From an uncultured Methanosarcinales archaeon (GTDB lineage: Archaea > Nanobdellota > Nanobdellia > Woesearchaeales > CAYSVS01), in NCBI GenBank assembly GCA_964589485.1, contig CAZPRK010000010.1, positions 1-36,366 on the forward strand: a stretch of DNA of 36,366 nt, read 5' to 3'. The position numbers are program-made. Shown here in pieces: positions 27,001 through 33,000 of this stretch (positions are counted from its first letter, which is position 1; every line of letters starts with the position of its first letter).

Positions 27001-30000
27001 TGTAGGTCATTTATTTAGTTTCGCAATGAATGCATTAGGTGGTTTTGTTCATAGTATTAGGTTACAGTTTGTAGAATTTTTTGGAAAATTTTATGAAGGT
27101 GGCGGAGATAGATTTTTACCATTTAAAGAAGAAAGAACTTATACTGAGGTTAAAAAATGAGCATTCCATATTATAGTTATTTACAAACCCAGGGAATTTT
27201 ACAGGAAGCTGTAAATAATATGACAAAGACAGTTGTTGAAACATCTGTTGATTTAAGTAATGTTACAATTAATAATTCAATTACAACTTCTGGAATGTTT
27301 GGTGGTATGTTTAATATTGGGATTGATCCTATGTATTTAGCTATAATAGGAGCAGGTATCGCAGTAGGTGTTTCTGGAATTGCATCAGCTATTGGAGCCG
27401 GAATTGCAGGAAGTACTGGAGCGAAAGCTGTAGCTGAAGATCCTAAACAATTTTCAACTGCATTATTATTTCAAGCTTTACCTCAAACTCAAGGTATTTA
27501 TGGTTTTTTAATTGCAATTTTAATATTATTGGGAGCAGGTGTAGTTGGAACTGTAAAACAAATCACATTAGCTCAAGGTTTAGGTGCTTTAGGTGCTGGT
27601 TTAGCAGTTGGAATTGCAGCAGTTTCAGCAATTGGTCAAGGTATTGCAGCAAGTGCAGGAATTGGAGCAGTAAAAGAAGATAAAAAAATGTTTGGTAAAA
27701 GTATTTTATTCTCAGTTTTGCCAGAAACTCAGGCATTATATGGTTTTATTATTTCTATTTTAATATTAATAGGTGTAGGGTTATTCGGAGCTGTAACAAA
27801 AAATATTCCTGAAGTATTAGGATGGGCTTCAGTTGGTGCAGGTTTAGCAGCAGGTATTGCTGGAATTTCAGCTTTAGGTCAAGGAATTGCGGCAGCCGGT
27901 GGAATTGGAGCTGTATTAGAGAGAAGTAAAGTTTTTGGTAAGAGTATTTTATTCTCAGTTTTGCCAGAAACTCAAGCATTATATGGATTTATAATTGCAG
28001 TATTGATATTAATAGGGTTTGGAATTTTAGGTGTTCCACAATCTGAATTTAATTTAGCTTTAGGAATGTTTGCAATAGCTGCAGGGTTAAGTGTAGGTAT
28101 TTCAGGAATTTCTGCAGTAGGTCAAGGTATGGCAGCTTCAGCCGGTATTGGAAGTATTGCAGAAGATGATAAAATGTTTGGTAAAAGTATTTTATTTTCA
28201 GTCTTGCCAGAAACTCAAGCATTATATGGATTTTTAATTGGAGTTTTAATTTTAGTTGGTGGTGGGTTAATTGGTGGAATAAAAGTTGGCATTACAACTC
28301 CTATAGGTGTTATTGCAATAGGCGCAGCTTTAAGTGCAGGTTTTGCAGCAGTTTCAGCTATAGGTCAAGGTATGTCTGCTTCTTCAGGAATAAAGTCAGT
28401 TACAGAAAAACCAAGTATGTTTGGTAAAAGTATTATATTTAGTATCATTCCTGAAACTCAAGCTTTAATGGGATTTTTAATTGCTATATTATTATTAATA
28501 GGTTCAGGTATTATTGGTTCAGCTAAAGCGGGACTTAGCATGGGCAGTGGTTTAATTGCAATAGGTGCAGGAGTTGCTGTTGGTTTAGCTGCTGTGTCTG
28601 CAGTAGGTCAAGGATATGTTGTAAGTTCAAGTATTACTAACGTTACAAGAAATGCGAAAATGTTTGGTAAAAGTTTATTATTCAGTGTACTTCCTCAAAC
28701 TCAAGCATTATATGGATTTTTAATTGCAATTTTATTATTAGTTGGAGGTGGTCTTGTAGGCGGAGTTAAGTCAGGACTTTCTACTTCAATAGGTTTAGTT
28801 GCAATTGGAGCTGGATTAGCAGTTGGTCTTTCTGCAATGTCAGCAATTGGTCAAGGACTAGTTGCAAGTAGTGCAGTAAATGCAGTTTCAAGAAATAATA
28901 AAATGTTTGGTAAAAGTATTTTATTTTCAGTCTTGCCAGAAACTCAAGCACTATATGGATTTTTAGTAGCTATAATTCTGTTAGTATCAGGTGGATTAAT
29001 TGGTGCTTCATCAACTAGTATTATTACTCCAATGGGAATTGTTGCAATTGGCGCTGCAATTAGTGTTGGGTTTGGAGCAATTTCAGCTATAGGTCAAGGA
29101 ACTTCTGCAGCTAGCGGAGTTACTGCAACTTCTGAAAAACAAAGTATGTTTGGTAAAAGTATTATATTTAGTATTATTCCTGAAACTCAAGCTTTAATGG
29201 GTTTTTTAATTGCAATTTTAATGTTGATTGGTGCAGGGTTAATGGGAAAAATTGCATATTCTATTTCGATAGCTCATGGGGTTGTAGCAGTGGGTGCAGG
29301 TTTTGCTGTCGGTATGGCTGCTATTTCAGCTATAGGTCAAGGGTTTGCAGTTTCAACATCTATTAATGCAGTAACCCAAGATGCAAAAATGTTTGCAAAA
29401 AGTTTATTGTTTTCAGTTATTCCACAAACTCAAGCTTTAATGGGTTTTTTAATCGCAATATTAATATTAATTGGCAGTGGATTAGTAGGAAGTATTAACA
29501 TGGCTATAACTACTGCAAATGGTCTTGTAGCAATAGGTGCAGGATTTGCTGTAGGATTAGGAGCATTATCTGCAGTAGGTCAAGGTTTTGTTATTTCATC
29601 TGCTATAACTACAGTAACACAAGATAACAAAATGTTTGGTAAAGGTTTATTGTTTAGTGTTCTTCCACAAACTCAAGCATTGTATGGATTTTTAGTTGCA
29701 ATTTTACTTCTTGTAGGAGGAGGATTAATAGGCGGAAGTGCTTTAGATTTACATATTCCTGTTGGATTACTTGCAATGGGTGCAGGGTTAGCTGTTGGTT
29801 TAGCAGCAGCTTCAGCTATTGGTCAAGGATTAGTTGCAGGAAGTGGTATAACTGCAGTTAAGGAAGATAATAAAATGTTTGGTAAAGCTATATTGTTTTC
29901 AGTCTTGCCAGAAACTCAAGCATTGTATGGATTTTTAATCGCAATTTTATTATTAGTAGGCGGTGGATTAATAGGTACATTAAATTTAGCATTAACTGTT

Positions 30001-33000
30001 CCTTTAGGTTTAGTTGCAATTGGAGCAGGGTTAAGTGTCGGAGTTGCTGCAGTTTCAGCTATAGGTCAAGGTGTAGCTGCAAGTAGCGGTGTTGCTTCAG
30101 TTCAAGAAAATAGTAAAATGTTTGGTAAAAGTATTTTATTTTCAGTATTACCAGAAACTCAAGCGTTATATGGAACAATAATATCTATTCTTTTAATGAC
30201 TGGTGTTGGTATAATGGGTGTTATTAAATCTGGAGTAACTATGTTACAAGGATTTGGTGCAATAGGCGCAGGATTAGCTATAGGTTTTGCTGCAATATCA
30301 GCATTAGGTCAAGGAATAATTTCAGCAAGTAGTATAGGTGCAAGTTTAAAAGATGCAAAAAGTATGGGTAAAGGATTAGTATTAAGTGTAATCCCTGAAA
30401 CATATGCTATCTTTGGATTATTAATTTCAATTTTAATGTTGTTAGGACTTAAAATAATTTAAGGTGTATAAAAAATGAGCTTAGAAAAAATTAAACAAAA
30501 AATTTTAGATGAAGCAAAAGAAGCTTCAGAAAAAACCAAGTCAGTATATCAAGAAAAAGTTGACGAAATTGTTAGTGACAATAAGAAAGAAATGGAAACA
30601 ATTTCTCAAAAAAAAGACGATGAAATTAATGCAGAAATTGTATTATTTAAAAAAAATGCAATAGCAAGACAAAAGTTATCTTTACAATCAAAGTATTTGG
30701 TAAGAAGGGAAGAGATATTTAATTCTCTTTTAACGGATGCATTGAAAAGTGTTGATGCTAATTTGGTTAAGGAATATATGAAAACTGTTCTTGATGAAAA
30801 TAAAGATTTATCTGGAAAAGTAACAGTAACTTGTTCAAAAGAATATATTGAGTTTGTTAATTCAAATACAAAATTTTCAAATTTTGAAGTAATTGAATCA
30901 AAAGATGATTCTTTTACTATCGCATCTGATTCAGGATTAAGAATCAATGGATCTTTAAATGCGTTAGTTGAAAGAAAAAAAAGTGAATTAAGACAAGGAG
31001 CCATCAAGGCTTTAGGTGTATAAATATGGATGTAGTAGTATTTGGAGCAATTGCAGCTAGTTTAGTTGCAGGAACTGTAGTTATTTGGCCTACTGTGCAA
31101 ATGACAATTGGTTTAGCTCCGCACATTTATGCTAATACTAGATGTAGTGCAAAACTTGCACAATTACTCCCAGATACATTTACAGATAATTTACTTCAAT
31201 CAGTTTCATATGAAGAATCATTATCTTTACTTGAAGATTCTTATTATAGAGTTTATGTAGAAAAGTCAAGAGATTTTGTTAAACTTAGTTCAATGTTAAA
31301 TCAAGATTTATATTTAACGTATCGATGGTTAGAAACAATTGTTCCTGAAAATATGGTTCCAATAATAAAAACACTTAGAATTAAGTTTGAAATTGGTGAT
31401 ATTAAAGAATTGTTTAATAATTTAAAAAATAAAATAACAGAACATAAACTTCCTCATGTTCAAGATGAAAATTTAAAATTAAAGTTAGAAAATACAACTG
31501 ATTTTGCATCATTAATGGCGTCATTTGAAGGAACTGAGTATAGTACTATTTTTGCTAATAAAAATCTTACACAACTCGATAGCATAAATAATGAATTAGA
31601 TAAATTTTATTTTGAAAAAGTTTTTGATGTCATTTCAGCTTCTGAAGATGAAAAAGCAGCAGTGGCATTTAAAGAATATTTTAGTTATTTAGTAGATTTA
31701 ATAAATTTAAAATTAACTCTTCGAAGAATTGATAAAAAATCTTCATTAGATTTATTAGATCATGGAAGAATTTCAAAAGAATCATTAGAAGATATTGAAG
31801 ATTTAAATGCTTTTGAGAATTTATTATCTCAATTTGGTTATAATGAAAATATTGTTGAATATACTCCTTTTGAGATTGAAAATAGCGTATACAAATATAT
31901 GAAGAAAGCTTCAGGGTTAATTAACTCAAAACATAGCTTAAAGTCAGGAAGTGTTGTAAGATATATTATGCTTAAAGAAATTGAAATTAGGAATGTAAAT
32001 ATTATTTTAAAATTAAAGTCAGATAACTTCAATAAAGAAGAAATTCAAAAGGTGTTAGTATTATGATGCAGATTGCTTTAATAGGAGATGAAGATACTAT
32101 TAACGGGTTTATGTTAGCTGGGGTAAAACATAGTATAAAATATAGAGAAGATAAGCTTGAAGAAGATTTGAAAAAATTTTCAGAAGCAAAAGTTTTAGTA
32201 TTTACAGAAAAAGTTGGAGAACAATTAAGAAAAACTGGATTAATTGATAAAATTGAAAATACATATTTAGAAATTCCAGATAAAACTGGTTCAAGTGGCC
32301 AGGCAATGCAAAAAATAAGTAATTTATTTGAGAGTGCAATTGGAATTGCACTAAAAGAAAACGAATAAGGTGATTCACGATGGAAGGAAAAATTATCAAA
32401 ATATCAGGACCTGTTGTTGTAGCTTCAGGCATGAAAGGAGTTCAGATGTATGAAGTTGTTAAAGTAGGAGATGAAGGATTAGTTGGTGAAGTAATTGAAC
32501 TTCATGAAGATACAGCGACAATTCAAGTATATGAAGAAACTACAGGGATTGCACCTGGCTCAAAAGTTGTATCTACTGGTGCAAGTTTAAGTGTTGAATT
32601 AGGTCCAGGAATTATAGGTAATATTTATGATGGGATATTAAGACCATTAGATAAAATTAAAGAACAAACTGGAGCATTTCTTGCGAGAGGTGTTGAAGCA
32701 GATTCAATTAACCATAAGAAAAAATGGAAATTTGTTCCAAAATTAAAAAAAGGAGAAGATGTTACTCCTGGAATGATTATTGGAGAAGTAAAAGAAACTT
32801 CAGTAGTTGTACAAAAAATTTTAGTTCCACCTGGTGTAGAGGGTGAACTTAAAAAAATATCAAAGGAAGGAGAATATACTGTAGAAGATGTTGTAGCTGT
32901 TGTAGGCGATACTGATATTAAATTAAGTCAAAAATGGCCGGTTAGAATTCCTCGTCCAGTAATTGATAAATTAGAACCTACTTTACCTTTAGTTACAGGA

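What a model noticed while it worked through the whole genome (the two positions that open the first line are those of the whole stretch)
27157..30462. Single-chain 13-hairpin A-ATPase rotor ring with four dead ion sites
The only proteolipid (c/K subunit) gene of the A1Ao ATP synthase operon (g00937, 1101 aa) encodes 13 tandem helical hairpins at an exact 81-residue period. That is a whole rotor ring in one polypeptide, so far discussed only for Methanopyrus kandleri. Only 9 hairpins keep the ion-binding Glu (P-E-T-Q); hairpins 1, 6, 9 and 10 have P-Q-T-Q. This predicts 9 ions per turn (3.0 per ATP) instead of 13 (4.3). The repeat array arose independently of the Methanopyrus one.
Evidence so far: pfam.tsv shows 13 full-length ATP-synt_C domains at 64, 145 ... 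1036, and no other ATP-synt_C gene in the genome. The operon g00936-g00943 encodes I, K, (E), C, F, A, B, D. The motif scan reads Q E E E E Q E E Q Q E E E. AlphaFold2 on a 12-sequence alignment gave pTM 0.78 and mean pLDDT 76, with long helices throughout and low-confidence loops only between hairpins. The database search found 15 other clusters of 983-1139 aa at 63-87% identity; those that are named are Nanobdellota/Nanoarchaeota MAGs with 11-13 motif-bearing hairpins, hairpin 1 is Q wherever the N-terminus is kept, and further Q residues vary. Hairpin-by-hairpin identity shows positional orthology with a DPANN relative (best [...]
(Added by a program. Inside this text positions count along the whole contig: contig position 1 is position 1 of the stretch shown here. 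"Call 12" and the like, gene names such as g00115 and contig names such as C1 are that model's own, and its searches are not shown. The text may have been shortened before it was handed on; [...] marks where a part breaks off. The agent that wrote the report below was given it as the finding of a first reader that could run no searches.)

Follow-up and report, generated by a model that had tools for sequence, protein, structure and literature searches.

The report
Single-gene 13-hairpin rotor, four blind sites
A tiny marine archaeon encodes the whole membrane rotor of its sodium-driven ATPase as one protein of 13 fused units, four of them deliberately made unable to carry an ion, so the machine should move about 3 ions per ATP instead of 4.

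Summary
ORF 27157-30462 encodes 1101 aa with 13 ATP-synt_C hairpins at an 81-residue period. The carboxylate position reads Q E E E E Q E E Q Q E E E. It is the only c/K gene of a 99.9%-complete genome and lies in an H-I-K-E-C-F-A-B-D operon.

New here:
- Hairpins 1 and 13 correspond to the two hairpins of Enterococcus hirae NtpK. The protein is a V-type double hairpin with 11 units inserted, and its origin is separate from the Methanopyrus one.
- Each internal blind site also has Tyr->Met in the preceding hairpin. Across 76 fused proteins, 29 of 29 internal blind hairpins follow a hairpin without that Tyr.
- The three internal blind units are copies of one conserved "blind" unit type.
- Relatives carry 12, 11 or 10 live sites. 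This one has 9, the fewest found.
- The "87% relative" is this same sequence minus one blind unit, giving 12 hairpins and still 9 live sites. Run contigs confirm the 13-unit form and hint that both forms coexist.

Closure of the ring by one chain and 3.0 Na+/ATP remain inferences. The scan already found a 13-hairpin DPANN rotor on other DNA (e1-1205754). The papers I searched name only Methanopyrus kandleri.

The parts
24926..25237 (+). H/G-like peripheral-stalk subunit, 103 aa
   Evidence: Pfam V-ATPase_G E 7e-6, below the cut-off. NCBIfam V-type subunit H E 2e-5, below the cut-off.
25241..27160 (+). Subunit I (stator a), 639 aa. Stator arginines R549 (26885-26887, SYSRLFAL) and R607 (27059-27061, HSIRLQFVEF). 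Its stop overlaps the K start (ATGA).
   Evidence: Pfam V_ATPase_I E 9e-25. Best solved relative is E. hirae Na+-ATPase subunit I, 8wci_P, E 5.6e-51, and the alignment shows both Arg motifs conserved. Positions. Overlap.
27157..30462 (+). Subunit K/c, 1101 aa: 13 fused helical hairpins, the whole proposed rotor ring
27157..27312 (+). N-terminal tail (residues 1-52), disordered in the model, with 3 N-x-S/T sequons. Probably extracellular and glycosylated.
   Evidence: pLDDT 20-27. About 3 sequons in the tail against 1 in the other 1039 aa; tails of 45-100 aa with 2-7 sequons in 11 of 14 clade members.
27313..27552 (+). Hairpin 1, the blind 'seam' hairpin: helix-1 Ala81 (27397-27399) in place of Gln, and Gln110 (27484-27486) in place of Glu. 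It keeps T111, Q112 and Y115, which serve site 2.
   Evidence: Aligns to hairpin 1 of E. hirae NtpK: LPQTQGIYGF against LPGTQGLYGF.
28468..28470 (+). Met438 (ATG) in hairpin 5, at the place of the Tyr that supports the Glu of the next hairpin. Partner of blind site 6.
28525..28767 (+). Hairpin 6, blind: Gln514 (CAA, 28696-28698)
   Evidence: Groups with hairpins 9 and 10 in the hairpin tree, support 97.
29185..29427 (+). Site unit 9 (residues 677-757: T-Q-A-L-Met681 ... Gln757). This blind unit is absent from the 12-hairpin twin sequence P0002. It is bounded by a 28-nt exact repeat (29183-29210 = 29426-29453).
   Evidence: Contigs of public runs cover 29181-29438 without a difference (X1) and bridge 29215-29857 (X3) and 29225-29839 (X4).
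29254..29496 (+). Hairpin 9, blind: Gln757 (CAA, 29425-29427). It also carries Met762 (29440-29442), the partner of blind site 10.
29497..29739 (+). Hairpin 10, blind: Gln838 (CAA, 29668-29670)
   Evidence: A run contig covers 29426-29900 without a difference.
30226..30462 (+). Hairpin 13, the live 'seam' hairpin: Glu1081, then Tyr1083 (30403-30405) and Phe1086 (30412-30414) in place of Gln and Tyr. PETYAIFG resembles VETYAILG of NtpK hairpin 2.
30475..31023 (+). E-like peripheral-stalk subunit, 182 aa
   Evidence: NCBIfam V-type subunit E E 4.3e-9, below the cut-off. No Pfam match.
31026..32066 (+). Subunit C (d), the rotor socket, 346 aa
   Evidence: Pfam vATP-synt_AC39 E 7.7e-36.
32063..32368 (+). 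Subunit F, 101 aa
   Evidence: Pfam ATP-synt_F E 7e-13.
32380..34116 (+). Catalytic subunit A, 578 aa
   Evidence: Pfam ATP-synt_ab E 6.9e-76 plus three flanking domains.
34130..35512 (+). Subunit B, 460 aa
   Evidence: Pfam ATP-synt_ab E 7.1e-77.
35478..36131 (+). Central-stalk subunit D, 217 aa
   Evidence: Pfam ATP-synt_D E 2.1e-56.

Best explanation
The gene encodes the complete Na+-binding rotor ring of an A/V-type rotary ATPase as one 26-helix polypeptide. It is built like an E. hirae-type double-hairpin K subunit, with a blind first hairpin and a live last hairpin, and 11 further hairpins inserted between the two.

Each ion site is made by Gln (helix 1) and Glu (helix 2) of hairpin n, together with Thr, Gln and a supporting Tyr of hairpin n-1. 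Nine sites (2-5, 7, 8, 11-13) have the full set. Four do not:
- The seam site, between hairpins 13 and 1, has lost Gln->Ala, Glu->Gln, Gln->Tyr and Tyr->Phe.
- Sites 6, 9 and 10 carry Glu->Gln with Tyr->Met in the preceding hairpin, plus bulkier helix-1 residues.

The three internal blind sites are copies of one conserved blind unit. The unit spread inside the gene by recombination in the conserved PETQAL-coding stretch.

Inferred: one chain closes the ring, so a turn carries 9 Na+, or 3.0 per ATP, against 4.0 in relatives whose only blind site is the seam. I found none of three respiratory-complex families in this organism, but it has a Na+-type membrane pyrophosphatase. The enzyme therefore most likely runs mainly as an ATP-driven Na+ pump. 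For a pump, fewer ions per ATP raise the attainable sodium-motive force. At an assumed 50 kJ/mol ATP this is about 173 mV at 3.0 against 130 mV at 4.0 (my arithmetic).
For: Shown:
- 13 hairpins, the sole c gene of the genome, and an intact operon.
- The codons at the four sites are CAA, and the Tyr->Met changes are TAT->ATG. Contigs of public runs cover 29181-29438 and 29426-29900 without a difference.
- Hairpins 1-2 align to NtpK with L108/T111/Q112/Y115/Q161/E190 matching L61/T64/Q65/Y68/Q110/E139. Those are the Na+ ligands and the Glu-supporting Tyr named in PMC2359735.
- The ETQxxY + helix-1 Q motif meets the Na+ rule quoted.
- Among 76 fused proteins, 29 of 29 internal Gln hairpins follow a hairpin without that Tyr, while 577 of 589 Glu hairpins follow one with it. 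Shifting the comparison by one hairpin removes the link.
- Blind hairpins form a conserved type. In 23 blind against 183 live internal hairpins, Ala->Val occurs at Q+3 in 91% against 16%, Ala->Val/Ile at Q+4 in 100% against about 1%, and Ile->Leu in KS-I-LF in 100% against 4%.
- Hairpins 6/9/10 group together (support 97), as do 5/8 (support 99). Blind units are each other's best match in the site register.
- First hairpins of all seam-bearing fused forms group with hairpin 1 of double-hairpin K genes of the same order (support 97), and last hairpins group with their hairpin 2.
- Subunit I keeps both stator arginines, and its best solved relative is the E. hirae Na+ pump.
- The K start overlaps the I stop in 6 of 6 fused genes, against 1 of 9 double-hairpin and 2 of 13 single-hairpin genes. 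This fits 1:1 synthesis, but the fused genes are one clade.
- Model: pTM 0.79. Adjacent hairpins superpose on NtpK with TM 0.87 and rmsd 1.6 A.
- No PF00361, PF02508 or PF00115 match in the genome; a membrane PPase is present. It has Glu at the position aligned to Vigna G297 and Gly at the position aligned to E301. Reading this as the Na+ type is a recalled rule.
- Woesearchaeota in general lack electron-transport chains (PMC8421398, passages).
Against: - Ring closure by one chain is not shown, because coordinates could not be read.
- In an engineered single-chain F-type c10 ring, one E56Q in the first hairpin abolished ATP synthesis. PMC8809890 reports this about Mitome 2004. Gln hairpins are therefore not harmless by default.
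- The 83-degree stretch without a site (hairpins 9-10) has no precedent that I know of.
- A twin sequence with 12 hairpins exists, so the hairpin number in the cell is not settled.
- A genome of the same genus (96% complete) shows neither the c family nor the A subunit, so the enzyme may be dispensable.
- Enzymes with V-type c subunits can synthesise ATP at 90-150 mV (PMC9171764), so 'few sites means pump' is not a safe rule.
- The covariation is partly linkage. Met and Gln of one site lie 76 residues apart in one 243-bp unit that is copied as a whole. Independent origins are therefore few: three residue patterns, namely Met; His+Ser/Ala; Phe+Phe+Val.
Confidence: 0.6

Rival explanations
1. The ring holds two or more K chains, for example 26 hairpins with 18 live sites and 6 Na+ per ATP. 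The gene would then be a large subunit and not a whole rotor.
For: The blind seam shows only that a last hairpin meets a first hairpin, which could belong to another chain. The 6-hairpin forms of Thermoplasmata with the same seam must use more than one chain. E. hirae rings hold 20 hairpins, and this I subunit is closest to the E. hirae one.
Against: Complete fused genes cluster at 12-13 hairpins in several lineages whose internal hairpins expanded separately. That is the size of known single-hairpin A/V rings: PDB entries of the Thermus subunit K list 12 chains per entry. The K start is coupled to the I stop. A 26-hairpin ring would be larger than any I know of.
Confidence: 0.12
2. The enzyme works mainly as a Na+-driven ATP synthase. 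It would be fed by the Na+ pyrophosphatase or by a host or partner gradient, and the blind sites would lower the ion cost per ATP.
For: A1AO enzymes with V-type c subunits synthesise ATP at low driving force (PMC9171764). A Na+-type PPase is present. Nine live sites give an exact 3 per ATP.
Against: None of the three respiratory or Rnf families searched was found. A PPase alone is a weak source. 3.0 Na+/ATP needs about 173 mV at 50 kJ/mol (my arithmetic), which is a lot for a fermenter.
Confidence: 0.3
3. The working form in the cell has 12 hairpins (Q E E E E Q E E Q E E E). The 13th unit is a minority variant, or the two forms coexist as a polymorphism.
For: P0002 equals P0001 minus residues 677-757, on a contig 243 bases shorter. 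In runs X1 and X2 the contigs break exactly at the 28-nt repeat. The downstream contig carries 2 letters that do not fit the 13-unit form. The 13-only segment has lower depth: 6.5 against 9.3-10.3, and 4.5 against 6.5-7.2. A second pair, P0009/P0013, differs in the same way.
Against: The 243 bases hold unique sequence, only 64% like the neighbouring unit, so an assembler cannot have invented them. Contigs of four runs cover them or bridge out of them. A collapse across a 28-nt repeat at low depth is a plausible artefact. The junction letters themselves were not shown to me.
Confidence: 0.2
4. The ATPase is decaying. The Glu->Gln changes would be neutral damage in a dispensable enzyme.
For: ATPases are patchy in DPANN: 92 of 151 genomes of the order show no match. 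A same-genus genome shows none.
Against: No frame is broken in nine genes. Blind hairpins match relatives about as well as live ones (hairpin 1 at 74% and hairpin 6 at 72%, against 54-80% for live hairpins). They carry the same accompanying substitutions across the clade. The stator arginines are kept.
Confidence: 0.06

Closest known systems
Methanopyrus kandleri subunit K (1021 aa, 13 hairpins; Lolkema & Boekema 2003, known to me only through reference lists and passages in PMC2359735 and the 2026 bioRxiv review)
   Same: One gene with 13 fused hairpins, deduced to be a whole rotor. Carries a Na+-type ETQ..Y motif. Methanopyrus proteins P0017 and P0031 were found at 45% identity.
   Different: All 13 Methanopyrus sites are live and there is no blind seam (PMC2359735). 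There is no hairpin-by-hairpin correspondence. Its hairpins do not fall into the first-hairpin and last-hairpin groups. Its hairpin periods are irregular, 74-81 residues. The origin is separate.
Enterococcus hirae V-type Na+-ATPase NtpK (PDB 2BL2) with NtpI (8WCI)
   Same: Best solved match of both K (E 4.7e-20; fold TM 0.87) and I (E 5.6e-51). Same Na+ ligand set. The blind first hairpin and the live last hairpin carry nearly the same motifs as hairpins 1 and 13 here.
   Different: NtpK has 2 hairpins and one site, and ten chains make the ring with a regular blind/live alternation. Here 13 hairpins lie in one chain with an irregular pattern, and the blind position is Gln, not Gly63.
Acetobacterium woodii F/V-hybrid c-ring (PDB 4BEM: nine c2/3 plus one c1)
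   Same: A Na+ ring with an irregular, non-alternating blind position that still makes ATP (PMC9171764). The c1 chain appears among the fold and sequence matches.
   Different: An F-type enzyme with separate chains, one blind position in 11, and no fused ring.
Engineered single-chain c10 ring of Bacillus PS3 F-ATP synthase (PMC8809890, passages)
   Same: A covalently closed rotor in which single sites can differ. It shows that a one-chain ring can work.
   Different: Man-made, F-type and proton-coupled. A single E56Q there stopped ATP synthesis, whereas the natural protein keeps four Gln hairpins together with accompanying changes.
13-hairpin DPANN rotor noted earlier in this scan (e1-1205754) and its public relatives P0009 and P0011
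   Same: Same clade and same seam, with 13 hairpins.
   Different: Those have 12 live sites. This one has 9, through three copies of a blind unit, and it has a 12-hairpin twin.

Membership tests
ATP-synt_C (PF00137) / V-type ATP synthase subunit K | Helical-hairpin domain matching the family profile | tested here: met
   13 stretches, E 3.1e-198. NCBIfam subunit K models score far above their cut-offs.
ATP-synt_C (PF00137) / V-type ATP synthase subunit K | Ion-carrying carboxylate in the middle of helix 2 | tested here: met
   Present in 9 of 13 hairpins; Gln in hairpins 1, 6, 9 and 10.
ATP-synt_C (PF00137) / V-type ATP synthase subunit K | Encoded between subunits I and E/C of an A/V-type operon | tested here: met
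Na+-binding c subunits | Helix-1 Gln/Glu plus E-[STQ]-[STQ]-x-x-Y in helix 2 (rule quoted in the bioRxiv review) | tested here: met
   The full ligand set is present for 9 sites when counted across neighbouring hairpins. Ion binding itself was not tested.
Monomeric rotor of the Methanopyrus kandleri kind | A whole ring's worth of hairpins in one gene, which is the only c gene of the genome | tested here: met
Monomeric rotor of the Methanopyrus kandleri kind | Every hairpin has a complete ion site | tested here: not met
   4 of 13 are blind.
Monomeric rotor of the Methanopyrus kandleri kind | One chain closes the ring | not testable with these tools
Only pTM 0.79 and local geometry are available.
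Monomeric rotor of the Methanopyrus kandleri kind | Common descent of the repeat array | tested here: not met
   No positional orthology. Different seam structure and separate grouping of the hairpins.
V-type double-hairpin K (E. hirae NtpK type) | Blind first hairpin that lends Thr/Gln/Tyr to the site of a live following hairpin; the last hairpin lacks Gln/Tyr | tested here: met
   Hairpins 1, 2 and 13.
V-type double-hairpin K (E. hirae NtpK type) | Four helices and one site per chain | tested here: not met
   26 helices and 9 sites.

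The most novel reading that the evidence does not exclude
The rotor is a natural modular gearbox. The 243-bp unit that runs from T-Q-A-L-(Y/M) of one hairpin to P-(E/Q) of the next encodes exactly one ion site. Recombination in the conserved PETQAL-coding stretch copies, swaps or deletes whole live or blind sites.

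In this way lineages, and possibly cells of one population (13- and 12-unit forms side by side), change ring size and ions per ATP (4.0, 3.7, 3.3, 3.0) in steps on one covalently closed ring. The blind units are a selected, cavity-filled design that lets a Gln hairpin pass the stator. The same change is lethal in an engineered F-type single-chain ring.
Probability: 0.35. Interest if true: 0.8.

Novelty: new variant of a known kind. Interest (0 to 1): 0.62.

Why it matters
The number of ion sites per turn sets how much ATP costs, or how steep a gradient a pump can build. Known ways to change it are ring size and the regular halving seen in V-type rings.

Here one scaffold of 13 fused hairpins occurs in nature with 12, 11, 10 and 9 live sites. 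This is a ready-made series for measuring how ion/ATP ratio, irregular gaps (up to 83 degrees) and elastic coupling affect a rotary motor.

Every hairpin of the chain differs and only one N-terminal tail exists. The absolute rotor angle could therefore be read in cryo-EM maps, which symmetric rings do not allow.

The blind-unit signature (Gln, Met for the supporting Tyr, bulkier helix-1 residues) shows what makes a carboxylate-free hairpin tolerable. That bears on why a single E56Q stops an engineered ring.

It also shows that the 'unique' Methanopyrus design is widespread and arose more than once.

Tried and rejected
- Model coordinates. I looked for a model file in the script box to measure the hairpin 13 to hairpin 1 distance. 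None is laid there.
- Foldseek against the PDB gives only chain-level matches (NtpK and V-type c) and cannot show closure.
- Complex prediction was not used. The chain exceeds the size limit for two copies. A test of hairpins 12-13 against 1-2 would pass by likeness to solved rings and could not tell one chain from two.
- Assembly artefact for the 13th unit: rejected. The unit is unique sequence (64% DNA identity to its neighbour) and is covered by run contigs.
- Deletion junction. The joints table lists no 243-base skip. The hint for the 12-unit form rests on contig break points, two unaligned letters and contig depths only. The other listed joints ('skips 488', 'goes back') are one contig of hairpins 11-12 laid onto the repeated stretch, and I disregard them.
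- Three independent Glu->Gln losses: rejected in favour of one blind type that was copied.
- Horizontal arrival on a mobile element: nothing supports it. The neighbours are housekeeping genes (SUF, CTP synthase, SerA-like).
- dN/dS per hairpin was not attempted, because at 63-71% protein identity synonymous sites are likely saturated and internal hairpins are not positionally orthologous.
- Literature. Searches for DPANN + c subunit + hairpins found 0 papers. '13 hairpins / monomeric rotor' found only papers that cite Methanopyrus.
- Supplementary files were not opened. Additional File 1 of PMC2359735 may list further multi-hairpin sequences.

Full report
**1. Observation**

The ORF at 27157-30462 (+) is open for 1101 codons. 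Tandem Repeats Finder sees a 243-bp period. Pfam finds 13 ATP-synt_C domains, E 3.1e-198.

The P-x-T-Q/Y motifs are spaced 80 residues once and then 81 residues eleven times. The carboxylate position reads Q E E E E Q E E Q Q E E E. The four Gln codons are CAA and the nine Glu codons are GAA.

The window's genome is 1.16 Mb in 23 contigs and 99.91% complete. It has no other match to the c-subunit family: all 13 matches lie in this ORF.

The gene order around it is H-like, I, K, E-like, C, F, A, B, D. The upstream neighbours are housekeeping genes, with no mobile element next to the operon.

AlphaFold2 on 15 aligned clade members gave pTM 0.79 and mean pLDDT 77. It shows 26 long helices, and low confidence only in residues 1-55 and the loops between hairpins.

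**2. What each site is made of**

Hairpins 1-2 align over their full length with the E. hirae Na+-ATPase subunit NtpK, 2BL2, E 4.7e-20. The correspondences are:

| This protein | NtpK |
|---|---|
| L108 | L61 |
| T111 | T64 |
| Q112 | Q65 |
| Y115 | Y68 |
| Q161 | Q110 |
| E190 | E139 |

PMC2359735 (passages) names E139, Q110, T64, the L61 carbonyl and Q65 as the Na+ ligands. It names Tyr68 as the residue that stabilises the Glu.

Site n therefore uses Gln and Glu of hairpin n, and Thr, Gln and Tyr of hairpin n-1. Counted this way:
- Sites 2-5, 7, 8 and 11-13 are complete, which makes nine.
- Sites 6, 9 and 10 have Gln for Glu, and Met for the Tyr of the preceding hairpin (residues 438, 681 and 762; TAT->ATG, a change of all three bases).
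- Site 1 has lost four of its residues: A81 and Q110 in hairpin 1, and Y1083 and F1086 in hairpin 13.

The motif meets the sequence rule for Na+ specificity quoted in the 2026 bioRxiv review. Ion binding itself was not tested.

**3. The seam and the origin**

Hairpin 1 (LPQTQGIYGF) and hairpin 13 (PETYAIFG) carry nearly the motifs of NtpK hairpin 1 (LPGTQGLYGF) and hairpin 2 (VETYAILG).

I built a hairpin tree of 101 rows and 69 columns with FastTree, so resolution is limited. It shows:
- The first hairpins of all seam-bearing fused proteins group with hairpin 1 of nine double-hairpin K genes from the same order (support 97).
- The last hairpins group with hairpin 2 of those genes (support 81).
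- Internal hairpins group by lineage.
- The 13 Methanopyrus hairpins fall outside both the first-hairpin and the last-hairpin group.

One of the nine double-hairpin genes comes from the unpublished genome G132. The result does not depend on it.

Methanopyrus proteins have all 13 sites live and no seam (PMC2359735). The identity matrix shows no diagonal against them.

So this array is a V-type double hairpin with 11 units inserted, and it arose apart from the Methanopyrus array.

Concerted evolution could also blur positional signal. It would not, however, create the seam.

**4. Blind units are a selected type, and they are copied**

I tested the link between blind sites and the preceding Tyr across 76 fused proteins, P0001-P0076. 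The seam hairpin and gap cells were left out. P0077-P0086 were also left out because they carry a different motif.
- 29 of 29 internal Gln hairpins follow a hairpin that lacks the Tyr.
- 577 of 589 Glu hairpins follow a hairpin that has the Tyr.
- The link vanishes when the comparison is made with the same hairpin or the following one.
- The 12 exceptions all have helix-1 Gln replaced by Leu or Ile.

These rows are related sequences, so they are not independent. I see three distinct residue patterns (Met; His+Ser/Ala; Phe+Phe with Val), which means at least three origins.

Within the clade I compared 23 blind with 183 live internal hairpins. First and last hairpins were dropped.

| Change in blind hairpins | Blind | Live |
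|---|---|---|
| Val at Q+3 | 91% | 16% |
| Val/Ile at Q+4 | 100% | about 1% |
| Leu for Ile in KS-I-LF | 100% | 4% |

In this protein, hairpins 6, 9 and 10 form one group (support 97), and hairpins 5 and 8 form another (support 99). In the register that runs from T-Q-A-L to P-E/Q, the three blind units are each other's best matches, at 64-70%.

Hairpins 8 and 9 are the least like the same positions of relatives, at 54-56%. This fits a recent replacement.

The blind sites therefore spread as whole units. A unit in that register holds all the residues of one site.

**5. The 12-hairpin twin**

P0002 was listed at 87% identity. In fact it is 100% identical to this protein except that residues 677-757 are missing, and its contig is 243 bases shorter. 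The missing block is exactly blind unit 9, so both forms have nine live sites.

The break lies in a 28-nt exact repeat, 29183-29210 = 29426-29453. The 243 bases are only 64% like the neighbouring unit, so an assembler cannot have made them up.

Contigs of four public runs from two studies (possibly one campaign) bear on this:
- X1 covers 29181-29438 with no difference.
- X2 covers 29181-29421.
- X3 bridges 29215-29857.
- X4 bridges 29225-29839.

In X1 and X2 the contigs break exactly at the repeat. The downstream contig starts with two letters that do not fit the 13-unit form. The 13-only segment also has lower depth: 6.5 against 9.3-10.3 in X1, and 4.5 against 6.5-7.2 in X2.

That is what a mixture of both forms would give. 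It remains a hint, because no skip of 243 bases is listed and contig depth is crude.

A second pair, P0009 (13 hairpins) and P0013 (12 hairpins), differs in the same way, with the break inside the conserved KSFGKSILFSVLPETQAL stretch.

**6. Relatives**

The clade is monophyletic (100/100) and sister to a 12-hairpin protein. Its members show the following:

| Hairpins / live sites | Members |
|---|---|
| 13 / 12 | P0009, P0011 |
| 13 / 11 | P0006, P0007, P0010, P0014, P0015 |
| 13 / 10 | P0003, P0004, P0005 |
| 13 / 9 | this gene |
| 12 / 11 | P0008, P0013 |
| 12 / 10 | P0012 |
| 12 / 9 | P0002 |

P0016 is cut at its end. This gene has the fewest live sites of all 86 proteins returned.

I sampled 151 genomes of the order:
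- 59 have a match.
- 7 hold the long fused form. Three of these are in pieces at contig ends.
- About 10 matches are double hairpins.
- The rest of the matches are single hairpins.
- 92 show no match.

A same-genus genome (96% complete) shows neither the c family nor subunit A.

**7. How it most likely works**

Subunit I keeps both stator arginines, R549 and R607. Its best solved relative is the I subunit of the E. hirae Na+ pump, E 5.6e-51.

The K start codon overlaps the I stop codon (ATGA) in 6 of 6 fused genes that have upstream sequence. The same is true of 1 of 9 double-hairpin and 2 of 13 single-hairpin genes. One fused and one single-hairpin locus were dropped for lack of upstream sequence. 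This fits one K chain per I chain, but it is one clade's trait.

If one chain closes the ring, a turn carries 9 Na+, or 3.0 per ATP. The gaps between live sites are 28 degrees in most places, 55 degrees across hairpins 1 and 6, and 83 degrees across hairpins 9-10.

The genome shows no complex-I-type antiporter module, no Rnf/Nqr and no haem-copper oxidase with the three families I searched. It does have a membrane pyrophosphatase. In alignment with the Vigna enzyme, this PPase has Glu at the G297 position, Gly at the E301 position, and GNTTAA. By a rule I recall but did not check in a paper, that marks a K+-dependent Na+ pump.

The organism lives in sea water, according to the labels of the runs that hold the sequence.

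I therefore favour an ATP-driven Na+ pump, with odds of about 55:30 against a synthase. Litty and Müller showed that an A1AO enzyme with a V-type c subunit synthesises ATP at 90-150 mV (PMC9171764, passages), so the synthase direction is open.

**8. Caveats**

- Closure and stoichiometry are inferred.
- PMC8809890 (passages) reports that a single E56Q in an engineered single-chain c10 ring abolished ATP synthesis. The four Gln hairpins here must be tolerated because of their accompanying changes, or the enzyme is impaired.
- The conserved blind-unit signature and the intact operon argue for the first option.

**9. Comparison and novelty**

The papers I could search name only Methanopyrus kandleri for a whole ring in one gene (searches; passages). 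The review of October 2026 still gives it as the extreme.

Public metagenomes hold many fused forms:
- 13 and 12 hairpins with a seam.
- 6 hairpins with PKD domains in Thermoplasmata.
- 15 all-live hairpins in Promethearchaeota.

This scan had already noted a 13-hairpin DPANN rotor with 12 live sites and a 15-hairpin Asgard rotor.

New here are the irregular set of four blind sites, the blind-unit signature with its neighbour-hairpin partner, the 12-to-9 series on one scaffold, and the 13/12 twin.

I call the organism DPANN because of the names on its nearest relatives, Nanoarchaeota and Nanobdellota MAGs. 'Woesearchaeota-like' comes from earlier notes of the scan, and I did not test it.

Noticed in passing
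window 27157-27312 (K residues 1-52): The N-terminal tail before hairpin 1 is disordered in the model and rich in N-x-S/T sequons (about 3 in the tail against 1 in the other 1039 aa). Tails of 45-100 aa with 2-7 sequons occur in 11 of 14 clade members. In a one-chain ring this single, probably glycosylated tail would sit at the outer mouth of the ring's central hole.
   Followed up: partly
proteins P0021, P0024, P0035 (12 hairpins): Some 12-hairpin rings keep Glu in every internal hairpin. In 2-3 sites, however, helix-1 Gln is replaced by Leu, the preceding Tyr by Phe, and sometimes Gln by His. One chain may thus mix Na+-type and H+-type sites.
   Followed up: no
proteins P0042-P0076: Thermoplasmata K subunits of about 605-805 aa have 6 hairpins (a blind seam plus 5 live). 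Most carry N-terminal PKD-type domains, which are extracellular domains on a rotor subunit.
   Followed up: no
proteins P0077-P0081: Promethearchaeota (Asgard) proteolipids of 1108-1147 aa have 15 hairpins, all with Glu and an E-A..L..Y motif (proton type) and no blind seam. This agrees with the earlier scan note e1-5478066.
   Followed up: partly
genome G032 (same genus as the window): With these queries, a 96%-complete genome of the same genus shows no c-subunit family match and no match to subunit A. The ATPase may be present or absent within one genus, or it may have been missed by binning.
   Followed up: partly
G000:C6:10611-12575 (locus L039 179-2221): A membrane pyrophosphatase of 680 aa. 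Aligned to the Vigna H+-PPase, it has Glu at the G297 position and Gly at the E301 position, plus GNTTAA. I recall this as the signature of K+-dependent Na+-pumping PPases.
   Followed up: partly
window 24448-24852 (+): A 134-aa ORF directly upstream of the H-like gene, on the same strand, has no Pfam or NCBIfam match. It may be a further operon member.
   Followed up: no
window 13538-17920 (+) and 10508-11350 (+): A 1460-aa protein with right-handed beta-helix/NosD repeats and DUF7379, probably a surface protein. Also a 280-aa protein with a BRO-N domain, which is usually viral or mobile.
   Followed up: no
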